NCBI RefSeq assembly: GCF_009914755.1
Contig: NC_060941.1
Source of the DNA: the human T2T-CHM13v2.0 reference genome, Homo sapiens
Length of the DNA stretch: 64,000 nucleotides
Reading direction: 5' to 3' (one strand)
Shown: piece by piece, positions 37,144-38,401 of the stretch
Layout: each line of letters opens with the position of its first letter
Numbering within the stretch: position 1 is the stretch's first letter
Notes under the pieces: model-generated
Database searches by the model: none
What the model was told of the DNA's origin: nothing
Seen by the model: the letters and a program-made list of their open reading frames with translations, nothing else
Position numbers and translations under genes: made by a program

Positions 37144-37480
37144 GGCTGGGCATGGTGGCTCACGCCTGTAATCCCAGCACTTTGGGAGGCTGCAGTGGGT
37201 GGATCACCTGAGTTCAGGAGTTTGAGAGCAGCCTGCCAACATATAGTGAAACCCTGTCTCTACTAAAAATACAAAAAAAAGAAAAACAAAAAAAACCAAA
37301 CTTAACTTGGCGTGGTGGAGGGCACCTGTATTCCCAGCTACTTGGGAGGCTGAGGCAGGAGAATCGCTTGAACCCAGGAGGTAGAGGTTGCAGTGAGCTG
37401 AGATCACACCACTGCACTCCAGCCTGGGCGACAGAGCAAGACTCTGTCTCAAAAAAATTAAATTAAATTAAATTAAAATA
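37144..37480 (+). mobile_element. AluS in GSDMB intron 6
   Basis: GGCTGGGCATGGTGGCTCACGCC...A-rich tail; TSD aaagtcaggaaa. Confidence 0.95.
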
Positions 37481-37898
37481 AAGTCAGGAAAACTGTGACT
37501 TGGGAGGCTGTAGAGCTAGTGAGTGGCAGGGTGGGACTAGACCCTGAGACTGCCTGACTCCAGTCCAGGACCCTTTTCACAGCCAGTGCTGTCCTGCTGG
37601 AACTGGCCAAGTCATTTAATTGTGCTTCCTAGGCCAACAAGACTTCAGGGAGGGCTGTAAGCTCAGGATCCAGCTGACTGCCAGCACGAAGTTGTCCTAG
37701 GAGCAGCCTGGAAACCCTAGTCCGATGTGCAATCCAGACTCTTCAACAGGCTAATTTTTCCCCTGCGCTTGCCATGGTTCCCACCTGTGGGTGCGTCTTA
37801 CCACATCCTCGGACCTAACCACTCTGTAATTCCATTTTTAAAAATAGTGTCTTTGCCCATTCTGAAATGACGAACGGGAAGCCCAGCAGCTCACTCAC

Positions 37899-37937
37899 CT
37901 TCTGGAAAGGATTTTGTTTTGCCCCTGAAATGAATAT
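37899..37937 (-). CDS. GSDMB: GSDMB exon 6 (39-nt cassette, phase 1-1; needed for pore formation)
   Basis: ggtttag|ATATTCATTTCAGGGGCAAAACAAAATCCTTTCCAGAAG|gtgagt; NIHFRGKTKSFPE. Confidence 0.95.
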
Positions 37938-38072
37938 CTAAACCAGCACCAAAAAGGGAGGAAAAAACAAGTTATTGGAGAGACCAGTTATCACTCTGTA
38001 AGTTCCCTTTCTCCAGTCCCTCTCAATCCCTATACCAGCCTCCAATCAAAAAAAAAAAAAAAAAAGACAACT

Positions 38073-38401
38073 GTTTTTTGTTTTTGTTTTTGTTTTTTGT
38101 TTTTTGTTTTTTGTTTTTGAGATGGAGTTTTGCTCTTGTTGCCTAGGCTGGAGTGCAATGGTGAGATCTCGGCTCACTGCAACCTCCACTTCCCAGGTTC
38201 AAGCAATTCTCCTGCCTCAGCCTCCCAAGTAGCTGGGATTACAGGCGCATACCACCACACCCAGCTAATATTTATATTTTTAGTAGAGACAGGGTTTCAC
38301 CATGTTGGCTAGGCTGGTCTCGAACTCCTGATCTCAGGTGATCCGCCCACCTTGGCCTCCCAAAGTGCTGGGATTACAGGCGTGAGCCACCACGTCCAGC
38401 C
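38073..38401 (-). mobile_element. AluS (Sq/Sp-like) in GSDMB intron 5
   Basis: (TTTTTG)n tail + GAGATGGAGTTTTGCTCTTGTTGCC...CCAGCC; TSD aaaaaagacaa. Confidence 0.95.

What the first reader, a model, noticed from the sequence alone, without database searches (positions are those of the whole stretch)
37144..38401. Inverted Alu pair brackets GSDMB exon 6: candidate RNA loop-out switch for pyroptotic vs non-pyroptotic gasdermin B
Seen: a full-length plus-strand AluS in intron 6 (37144-37480) and a full-length minus-strand AluS in intron 5 (38073-38401) sit tail-to-tail. The ~590 nt between them contain only the 39-nt exon 6 and its splice signals. Established: exon 6 (NIHFRGKTKSFPE) is required for GSDMB pore formation after granzyme A cleavage, exon-6-lacking isoforms are common, and inverted Alu pairing can force exon skipping (TBXT exon 6 in apes). 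Inference: a ~300-bp Alu duplex could hide exon 6, making GSDMB killing tunable by ADAR, DHX9, hnRNPC or interferon state independently of the acceptor SNP. A plus-strand Alu monomer in intron 4 (39138-39275) could compete for the intron 5 Alu and loop out exon 5 instead. I do not know of this mechanism being described for GSDMB.
Basis: partly seen in the sequence, partly recalled or inferred. Interest (0 to 1): 0.8.

Follow-up and report, generated by a model that had tools for sequence, protein, structure and literature searches.

The report
Inverted Alu pair around GSDMB exon 6
Two old Alu repeats pointing in opposite directions really do bracket the tiny exon that gasdermin B needs to kill cells, and they could fold the RNA so that the exon is skipped, but this is an untested local example of a mechanism already described genome-wide.

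Summary
A full-length + strand Alu (37144-37478, GSDMB intron 6, antisense to the gene) and a full-length - strand Alu (38074-38401, intron 5, sense) face tail-to-tail across 592 nt that hold the 39-nt exon 6. Both have target-site duplications. Folding predicts about 250 base pairs between them, also when the other Alus of introns 3 and 4 compete.

The arrangement is not rare: 20 of 48 neighbouring Alu pairs in this window are inverted and within 1 kb. The stem does not change the predicted accessibility of the splice sites. Nascent-RNA folds pair the intron 5 Alu first with upstream Alus; that pairing brackets exons 4-5, which form the only reported GSDMB circular RNA.

Loop-out exon skipping by inverted Alus is established (TBXT 2024; two genome-wide studies in 2026, with reporter deletions). 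Exon 6 fits the prone class by eye: short, displaced pyrimidine tract, strong donor. About 40% skipping is reported in carriers of two intact acceptors. None of my six GSDMB literature searches found a paper naming this pair.

Verdict: a plausible but untested new member of a known kind. It is more likely a modest modifier than a switch.

The parts
37144..37478 (+). Full-length dimeric Alu in GSDMB intron 6, antisense to the gene. In the pre-mRNA it reads as U-rich tail first, then right arm, U-rich linker, left arm.
   Evidence: Sub-threshold 7SL/SRP matches on the + strand at 37145-37259 and 37305-37452; blastn self-map; inverted arms; target-site duplication at 37131-37143 and 37479-37491; 4 CpG left.
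38074..38401 (-). Full-length dimeric Alu in GSDMB intron 5, sense to the gene. It is the only sense-oriented Alu between 34318 and 44580.
   Evidence: Sub-threshold 7SL/SRP matches on the - strand at 38284-38400 and 38117-38265; Alu map; target-site duplication at 38060-38070 and 38402-38412; 6 CpG left.
37899..37937 (-). GSDMB exon 6 (39 nt, encodes NIHFRGKTKSFPE), enclosed in the 592-nt loop. Acceptor AG at 37938-37939. The window carries the intact-acceptor allele of rs11078928; the SNP's place is my inference from the paper's wording plus the sequence.
   Evidence: Hub annotation; translation and splice dinucleotides. 3' splice site TTTTTTCCTCCCTTTTTGGTGCTGGTTTAG|ATA; 5' splice site AAG|GTGAGT, 7 of 9 matches to the consensus.
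38048..38065 (-). A18 on the + strand, so U18 in the pre-mRNA, 111-128 nt upstream of the exon 6 acceptor and next to the intron 5 Alu's A-rich tail. Its 3' part belongs to the target-site duplication.
   Evidence: In the fold with the Alus its mean probability of being unpaired is 0.17, against 0.92 in the loop folded alone.
39138..39275 (+). Alu monomer in intron 4, antisense to the gene. It can pair with the left arm of the intron 5 Alu and would then bracket exon 5.
   Evidence: Inverted arms 38301-38390/39148-39237, 90 nt, 88%; 7SL match at 39139-39252; cofold gain -103 kcal/mol; 109 bp in the nascent-RNA fold without intron 3.
40745..41027 (+). Full-length Alu in intron 3, antisense to the gene. 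It is the predicted first partner of the intron 5 Alu in nascent RNA, and that pairing brackets exons 4-5.
   Evidence: Alu map; cofold gain -256 kcal/mol; 238 bp with the intron 5 Alu when the RNA ends at exon 6.
39856..40039 (+). Partial Alu in intron 3, antisense to the gene; a further possible partner of the intron 5 Alu.
   Evidence: Alu map; cofold gain -178 kcal/mol.
38680..38764 (-). GSDMB exon 5 (85 nt, weak donor TGA|GTAAGC), bracketed by the intron 4 monomer and the intron 5 Alu. Exon-5-skipped isoforms are reported.
   Evidence: Cardamone 2017 section 2.1.

Best explanation
Two old, independent Alu insertions of opposite orientation lie in the introns on either side of GSDMB exon 6. 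In the pre-mRNA they can form a duplex of about 250 bp that closes a 592-nt loop holding the exon. I think the duplex most likely forms in a fraction of transcripts and acts as a modest, quantitative promoter of exon 6 skipping by loop-out. It would bring the exon 5 donor (278 nt from the stem) and the exon 7 acceptor (433 nt from the stem) together, so the exon-skipping splice spans about 711 nt plus a stem instead of 1969 nt. This would add to an exon that is already poorly defined: 39 nt, a pyrimidine tract displaced from the AG, and a competing cryptic AG 13 nt inside. It is a contributor to the roughly 40% skipping seen with two intact acceptors, not a stand-alone switch. The acceptor SNP rs11078928 remains the main known determinant. 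Shown: the anatomy, the predicted thermodynamics, the published skipping and the general mechanism at other genes. Inferred: that the duplex forms at this locus in cells and that it changes exon 6 inclusion.
For: Anatomy and orientation. Duplex: the MFE of the 1351-nt pre-mRNA stretch closes the loop with the two Alus. The ensemble expects 252.9 intron 5:intron 6 base pairs, and 251 of 297 intron 5 Alu positions pair with the intron 6 Alu at P>0.9. Cofold gain is -287 kcal/mol against about -17 for shuffled partners. In a 4417-nt fold that includes the intron 3 and 4 Alus, the intron 5 Alu still pairs with the intron 6 Alu (254 bp). The two are each other's best match among 37 full-length Alus of the window: 89.7% over 273 nt, 99.2nd percentile of 666 pairs. 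That is better than the TBXT stem, given as 228 of 297. Exon class: short exon, displaced pyrimidine tract, strong donor, 1188-nt downstream intron. Denisko 2026 finds loop-out signals only for weak-acceptor/strong-donor exons, and finds skippable exons shorter with shorter downstream introns. Skipping without the SNP: 39.7% lack exon 6 in A/A controls. Mechanism elsewhere: deleting either TBXT Alu removes the exon-6-skipped isoform; 7 of 8 reporters lose skipping when an Alu is deleted, with PSI changes from about 1 to over 40%. Within this window, only 2 of 15 internal exons have an inverted pair within 1 kb across them, GSDMB exons 5 and 6, and both are reported as skipped.
Against: There is no direct evidence at this locus: no editing, cross-linking or deletion data could be reached. 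Inverted neighbours are common here (20 of 48 adjacent pairs within 1 kb) and genome-wide (22,619 inverted of 49,891 pairs within 1-kb windows, many around constitutive exons). Genome-wide effects are small: the MFE difference between skippable and constitutive exons is d = -0.12, and the PSI correlation is R2 = 0.06 even in the prone class. Exon 7 (27 nt) is also skipped, and no inverted pair spans it, so tiny exons in this gene skip without a loop. Predicted accessibility of the 3' splice site, exon and 5' splice site is identical with and without the Alus (0.40, 0.52, 0.32). The upstream antisense Alus are transcribed first, and nascent-RNA folds pair the intron 5 Alu with them (238 bp or 109 bp). 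The high pair identity is mostly explained by both elements lying near the family centre (residual z = 1.75, rank 25 of 666), so nothing points to selection for pairing. My weak-acceptor call is by eye; no MaxEntScan score was computed. GSDMB has 0 occurrences in the held supplements of both genome-wide papers, but one file was cut when stored and the other two files are small.
Confidence: 0.45

Rival explanations
1. Bystander. The two Alus are neutral intronic insertions. [quoted passage not shown]
For: Inverted Alu neighbours within 1 kb are ordinary here (20 of 48). Many constitutive exons are flanked by inverted pairs, and the stability difference is tiny. Exon 7 skips without a pair. Splice-site accessibility is unchanged by the stem. 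There is no excess complementarity after correction. Intron 5 is short (742 nt) and could be spliced quickly (inference).
Against: At other genes in the same configuration, deletion of an Alu lowered skipping in 7 of 8 reporters, and TBXT skipping depends on both Alus. The pair here is closer together and better matched than the TBXT pair. The 39.7% skipping in A/A carriers still needs a cause.
Confidence: 0.38
2. The intron 5 Alu is mostly taken by upstream partners. Because the antisense Alus of introns 3 and 4 are transcribed first, it pairs with them. That promotes back-splicing of exons 4-5 (hsa_circ_0106803) and exon 5 skipping, and the intron 6 Alu is largely left unpaired.
For: Nascent-RNA folds ending at exon 6 give 238 bp with the intron 3 Alu at 40745-41027, or 109 bp with the intron 4 monomer if intron 3 is gone. 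The only circular RNA detected with divergent primers on all exons joins exon 5 to exon 4, exactly the exons bracketed by that pairing. Exon-5-skipped isoforms exist.
Against: The circle is rare (Ct 33.1 against 27.4 for linear RNA). At equilibrium the intron 6 partner wins. The monomer covers only the left arm, leaving the right arm free to nucleate with the intron 6 Alu (inference). The source paper does not discuss flanking Alus; 'Alu' occurs only in its reference list.
Confidence: 0.12
3. The intron 6 antisense Alu acts alone. Its U-tracts would bind hnRNP C or act as a decoy polypyrimidine tract or cryptic exon, changing the exon 6 to exon 7 splicing choice without pairing with the intron 5 Alu.
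For: In the pre-mRNA the element starts with a U-rich tail and has a U-rich linker. HNRNPC eCLIP signal is enriched over antisense Alus. Two preprints on Ku and antisense Alus appeared in a search listing only.
Against: No Alu-derived exon is annotated in intron 6 (hub table). The element starts 418 nt from the exon 6 donor and ends 433 nt from the exon 7 acceptor. TBXT-type effects needed both partners.
Confidence: 0.05

Closest known systems
TBXT exon 6 loop-out by the AluSx1 (intron 5) / AluY (intron 6) inverted pair (Xia et al. 2024, PMC10901737; passages read)
   Same: One Alu in each intron flanking a single in-frame exon, opposite orientation, a predicted long stem that traps the exon, and a second inverted partner that gives an alternative skipping product.
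   Different: In TBXT both Alus were deleted by CRISPR and the isoform vanished; nothing of the kind exists for GSDMB. The TBXT AluY is hominoid-specific, whereas both GSDMB Alus look old (4 and 6 CpG left; age across species not tested). GSDMB exon 6 is far smaller and has a common acceptor SNP.
Genome-wide inverted-Alu loop-out exon skipping (Denisko et al. 2026, PMC13019027; Lee et al. 2026, PMC13019944)
   Same: A short skippable exon with what looks like a weak acceptor and a strong donor, a short downstream intron and a close inverted pair.
   Different: GSDMB is not named in either main text (neither paper is among the five that hold both 'GSDMB' and 'inverted Alu') nor in the held supplements (one file cut). 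Average effects there are small.
Inverted-Alu-driven back-splicing (search listings and a reference-list entry only; Zhang 2014 recalled) and the GSDMB exon 4-5 circular RNA hsa_circ_0106803 (Cardamone 2017)
   Same: The same intron 5 Alu, paired with the intron 3 Alus, brackets exactly the circularised exons. Competition among alternative Alu pairings is the accepted logic for choosing circles.
   Different: The dependence of this circle on these Alus has not been tested or, in the papers I read, discussed. A circle of exon 6 alone (39 nt) is unlikely (inference).
Intronic Alus that shift exons from constitutive to alternative (Lev-Maor et al. 2008, PMC2533698; search listing and start of abstract only)
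   Same: Alu-Alu double-stranded RNA near an exon is linked to alternative splicing.
   Different: As I recall it, the tested case there had both Alus in the upstream intron. I did not read the paper's text.

Membership tests
Exon-flanking inverted Alu pair causing loop-out exon skipping (TBXT type) | Two Alus of opposite orientation, one in each intron flanking the exon | tested here: met
   intron 6 Alu on the + strand, intron 5 Alu on the - strand, 592 nt apart tail to tail.
Exon-flanking inverted Alu pair causing loop-out exon skipping (TBXT type) | A long intramolecular duplex predicted between the two, preferred over other partners | tested here: met
   About 253 bp in the ensemble and 254 bp in the 4.4-kb fold with competitors. 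Caveat: nascent-RNA folds prefer upstream partners.
Exon-flanking inverted Alu pair causing loop-out exon skipping (TBXT type) | The enclosed exon is skipped in vivo without a splice-site mutation | tested here: met
   From the literature, not the sequence: 39.7% exon-6-skipped transcripts in rs11078928 A/A controls (Cardamone 2017 passages).
Exon-flanking inverted Alu pair causing loop-out exon skipping (TBXT type) | Exon of the prone class (weak acceptor, strong donor, short exon, short downstream intron) | tested here: inconclusive
   By eye: the 17-nt pyrimidine run ends 13 nt before the AG; donor 7 of 9; exon 39 nt; intron 6 is 1188 nt. No MaxEntScan score was available.
Exon-flanking inverted Alu pair causing loop-out exon skipping (TBXT type) | The duplex forms in cells (clustered A-to-I editing, psoralen or proximity-ligation chimeras) | not testable with these tools
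   No editing or RNA-duplex database was at hand, and searches found no paper with such data for GSDMB.
Exon-flanking inverted Alu pair causing loop-out exon skipping (TBXT type) | Deleting or inverting either Alu lowers skipping | not testable with these tools
   Needs a bench experiment.
Inverted-Alu-flanked back-spliced exons (circular RNA) | Inverted Alus in the introns flanking the circularised exons | tested here: met
   Intron 3 + strand Alus (40745-41027, 39856-40039) against the intron 5 - strand Alu.
Inverted-Alu-flanked back-spliced exons (circular RNA) | A circular RNA with that junction exists | tested here: met
   From the literature: an exon 5 to exon 4 junction, enriched by RNase R (Cardamone 2017 section 2.4).
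Inverted-Alu-flanked back-spliced exons (circular RNA) | The circle depends on the Alus | not testable with these tools
   Needs a bench experiment.
Alu (7SL-derived dimeric SINE) | Two 7SL-like arms joined by an A-rich linker | tested here: met
   Two sub-threshold SRP matches per element, E 1e-8 to 1e-12. No match reached the gathering score, which I would expect for Alus.
Alu (7SL-derived dimeric SINE) | A-rich tail and target-site duplication | tested here: met
   No repeat library was available. There are only indirect signs of age: 4 and 6 CpG left and 89.7% mutual identity.

The most novel reading that the evidence does not exclude
The single sense Alu of intron 5 is a three-way hub. 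Pairing with the intron 3 Alus gives the exon 4-5 circular RNA. Pairing with the intron 4 monomer gives exon-5-skipped, decay-bound transcripts. Pairing with the intron 6 Alu gives the non-pore-forming exon-6-skipped mRNA, and no pairing gives pore-forming GSDMB. Factors that handle Alu duplexes (hnRNP C, ILF2/ILF3, DHX9, ADAR1) would then set cell-killing competence, GSDMB dosage and circle output together. This would explain why multiple-sclerosis blood cells show both a 2.8-fold rise of the circle and the loss of genotype control over exon 6 (Cardamone 2017). It would also make antisense oligonucleotides against one Alu arm a way to restore pyroptosis-competent GSDMB in tumours.
Probability: 0.12. 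Interest if true: 0.75.

Novelty: new member of a known kind. Interest (0 to 1): 0.5.

Why it matters
Exon 6 decides whether granzyme-A-cleaved gasdermin B forms pores. Isoforms without it are non-cytotoxic, and reviews report them as often overexpressed in tumours (passages). The exon also sits at the 17q21 asthma and autoimmunity locus. A 2026 review states that almost nothing is known about how this splicing event is regulated in tumours. If the Alu pair contributes, it offers a concrete cis element to delete, flip or block with an oligonucleotide. It would also link GSDMB killing capacity to the cell's handling of Alu double-stranded RNA. If it does not contribute, the roughly 40% SNP-independent skipping comes down to weak exon definition and trans-acting factors.

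Tried and rejected
1. Stem masks the splice sites: rejected. The mean probability of being unpaired at the 3' splice site, exon and 5' splice site is 0.40, 0.52 and 0.32 with and without the Alus.

2. Selection or gene conversion keeping the two Alus complementary: not supported. Raw identity is at the 99.2nd percentile, but the residual is only z = 1.75 after allowing for each element's closeness to the family centre.

3. The intron 5:intron 6 pair is energetically special: rejected. Any full-length inverted partner gives -251 to -296 kcal/mol. Only proximity singles this pair out.

4. A circular RNA of exon 6 alone: set aside. 39 nt is very small (inference), and no such circle was reported, although divergent primers in a 39-nt exon are hardly feasible.

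5. Rfam at gathering thresholds over 34000-49000 gave 0 matches. The permissive scan was needed.

7. Kong et al. 2023 (PMC10338320) is not held. I know its content only through reviews.

8. Searching the held supplements of the two genome-wide papers for GSDMB gave 0 occurrences. This is weak evidence: one file was cut when stored, and the other two files total 28,061 characters.

9. Orthologous primate or other mammalian loci could not be fetched. The sequence collections offered are prokaryotic, viral, plasmid or E. coli, so the age of the Alus and exon 6 splicing in Alu-free species stay untested.

10. No MaxEntScan model was available, so splice-site strength was judged from the printed sites only.
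Full report
**What is in the sequence**

The window is human chr17 and GSDMB lies on the - strand (hub table). Reading 36600-39700 and scanning for repeats shows two long inverted repeat blocks. The arms are 37286-37433/38137-38284 (148 nt, 84% complementary) and 37144-37234/38311-38401 (91 nt, 89%).

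A permissive Rfam scan matches each arm to the 7SL/SRP model below its gathering score, with E-values from 1e-8 to 1e-12. The matches are on the + strand at 37145-37259 and 37305-37452, and on the - strand at 38284-38400 and 38117-38265. These are therefore two dimeric Alus of opposite orientation. At gathering thresholds nothing is reported.

Both elements have A-rich tails that face each other and intact target-site duplications. The duplications are TAAAGTCAGGAAA at 37131-37143 and 37479-37491, and AAAAAAGACAA at 38060-38070 and 38402-38412. They are thus independent retrotransposition events.

The tails are 592 nt apart. That stretch holds exon 6 (37899-37937), 135 nt of intron 5 and 418 nt of intron 6. 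The window carries the intact acceptor.

Only 4 and 6 CpG remain in the two elements, so they look old. The subfamily 'AluS' could not be tested.

**Is it more than chance?**

The duplex is. The arrangement is not.

- Cofolding the two Alus gains -287 kcal/mol, against about -17 for shuffled partners.
- The 1351-nt fold closes the exon 6 loop with the Alus.
- The ensemble expects 252.9 inter-Alu base pairs.

However, any full-length inverted Alu in the gene gives -251 to -296 kcal/mol. Alus also make up 23% of this window: there are 49 blocks of 120 nt or more, 21 of 48 neighbouring pairs are inverted, and 20 of those lie within 1 kb.

The pair is each other's best match among 37 full-length Alus (89.7%, 99.2nd percentile of 666 pairs). 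This shrinks to z = 1.75 once each element's closeness to the family centre is allowed for.

One thing is less common. Of 15 internal exons of the selected transcripts in the window, only GSDMB exons 6 and 5 have an inverted pair within 1 kb across them. Both share the intron 5 Alu, which is the only sense-oriented Alu between 34318 and 44580.

**Surroundings and competition**

Antisense partners for the intron 5 Alu lie in four places:

- intron 6: the focal Alu;
- intron 4: a monomer at 39138-39275;
- intron 3: 39856-40039, 40745-41027 and a fragment;
- intron 2: three more.

At equilibrium, a 4417-nt fold from exon 7 into intron 3 still pairs the intron 5 Alu with the intron 6 Alu (254 bp). 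Transcription, though, makes the upstream partners first. If the RNA ends at exon 6, the intron 5 Alu pairs with the intron 3 Alu at 40745-41027 (238 bp). If intron 3 is already gone, it pairs with the intron 4 monomer (109 bp).

The intron 3:intron 5 pairing brackets exons 4-5. The only GSDMB circular RNA found with divergent primers on all exons joins exon 5 to exon 4 (hsa_circ_0106803). It is rare, with Ct 33.1 against 27.4 for linear RNA (Cardamone 2017, section 2.4 read in full). The same paper reports isoforms lacking exon 5, exon 6 or exons 5-6, among others, and finds alternative splicing confined to the exon 4-9 region (section 2.1). It does not discuss these Alus; 'Alu' occurs only in its reference list.

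**How it would work**

The stem does not mask the exon. Predicted unpaired probabilities of the 3' splice site region, exon and 5' splice site are 0.40, 0.52 and 0.32, whether or not the Alus are included. Any effect must therefore be topological.

The stem places the exon 5 donor (278 nt away) next to the exon 7 acceptor (433 nt away). The exon-skipping splice then spans about 711 nt plus a stem instead of 1969 nt, which is comparable to intron 5 itself (742 nt).

The exon looks poorly defined. It is 39 nt long, its 17-nt pyrimidine run ends 13 nt before the AG, and a cryptic AG lies 13 nt inside. That cryptic site is used when the SNP destroys the acceptor (Cardamone passages). The donor is strong, AAG|GTGAGT.

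**What is known**

- *Exon 6 and pore formation.* Exon 6 is needed for pyroptosis, and isoforms without it are non-cytotoxic (review passages; Oltra 2023 passages).
- *The acceptor SNP.* rs11078928 destroys the acceptor. G/G carriers have almost no exon 6 transcripts (Morrison 2013 passages).
- *Skipping without the SNP.* A/A controls still skip exon 6 in 39.7% of transcripts, against 53.7% in A/G and 70.6% in G/G. Multiple-sclerosis patients lose this genotype dependence and have 2.8-fold more of the circle (Cardamone).
- *An open question.* A 2026 review says almost nothing is known about the regulation of this event in tumours.
- *The TBXT precedent.* CRISPR deletion of either Alu abolishes the exon-6-skipped TBXT isoform, with a stem of 228 of 297. 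A competing partner gives a second isoform, and the authors raise the idea that one locus can yield both skipped and circular products (Xia 2024 passages).
- *Denisko 2026 (sections read).* Inverted pairs are enriched around skippable exons, but effects are small (d = -0.12; R2 = 0.06). The signal is limited to weak-acceptor/strong-donor exons. All 11 hominoid-specific candidates showed the skipped isoform in human cells but not in Vero cells.
- *Lee 2026 (Results read in full).* The study used SPLASH in K562 cells. In 7 of 8 reporters, deleting an Alu reduced skipping, by about 1 to over 40 PSI points. HNRNPC opposes this skipping and ILF2/ILF3 favour it.

**Is this pair in print?**

I found no paper that names it. 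Six searches returned reviews, or papers in which 'Alu' means the promoter Alu upstream of GSDMB or appears in a reference title (checked):

- GSDMB + exon 6 + Alu;
- GSDMB + inverted Alu;
- GSDMB + ADAR + editing + Alu;
- GSDMB + exon 6 + antisense oligonucleotide + splicing;
- GSDMB / exon 6 / HNRNPC / DHX9 / ILF3 / ADAR1;
- GSDMB + dsRNA + Alu + intron.

GSDMB has 0 occurrences in the held supplements of the two genome-wide papers. One of those files was cut when stored, so a table row could have been missed. The library holds open-access PubMed Central and bioRxiv only, and Kong 2023 is not held.

**Verdict**

| Reading | Odds |
|---|---|
| Modest, quantitative contribution of the duplex to exon 6 skipping | about 0.45 |
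| Pure bystander | about 0.38 |
| Intron 5 Alu mostly engaged upstream (circle, exon 5 skipping) | about 0.12 |
| Solo action of the antisense intron 6 Alu | about 0.05 |

A regulated 'switch' that sets pyroptotic competence is the bold version, and I rate it at about 0.12. It is a new member of a known kind. Its interest comes from the medical weight of exon 6 and from how directly it can be tested.

Noticed in passing
window 44197-44472 (+) and 44581-44992 (-): A very tight tail-to-tail inverted Alu pair inside GSDMB intron 2, only 108 nt apart. It should form an intra-intronic hairpin and soak up one of the two sense-oriented Alu blocks of intron 2, which bears on which partners remain free for cross-exon pairing.
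   Followed up: partly
window 38048-38065: An A18 run on the + strand (U18 in the pre-mRNA), 111-128 nt upstream of the exon 6 acceptor and next to the intron 5 Alu's A-rich tail. Its 3' part belongs to the Alu's target-site duplication. In the fold it pairs with A-rich tail sequence. It could be a binding site for U-tract proteins (inference).
   Followed up: partly
window 38677-38682 (exon 5 donor): GSDMB exon 5 (85 nt, not a multiple of three) has the weakest-looking donor of the internal exons, TGA|GTAAGC, 5 of 9 matches to the consensus (tied with exon 8). This fits the reported exon-5-skipped, decay-prone isoforms.
   Followed up: partly
window 49597-59726: About 10 kb around ORMDL3 has no Alu hit at all, while Alus cover 23% of the window overall. 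Also Alu-free is 34058-37143, which holds GSDMB exons 7-11.
   Followed up: no
window 25708-31548 and 39138-44472: Long runs of same-strand Alus: eight blocks in a row on the - strand between ZPBP2 and GSDMB (one block may hold more than one Alu), and seven blocks of 120 nt or more on the + strand, plus a 68-nt fragment, in GSDMB introns 2-4. The second run is why the intron 5 Alu is the only sense copy in the 3' half of the gene.
   Followed up: no
window 37303-37430, 38140-38267, 39189-39248: Sub-threshold Rfam matches to mir-1268, mir-3135 and mir-1285 fall inside the Alus. These look like Alu-derived microRNA families matching Alu sequence in general, not evidence of microRNA genes here.
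   Followed up: no
window 48503-48783 (-): An Alu just upstream of GSDMB exon 1 coincides with the RefSeq mobile_genetic_element at 48496-48783. It appears to be the 'Alu-derived' promoter element that the GSDMB literature means when it mentions Alu.
   Followed up: partly
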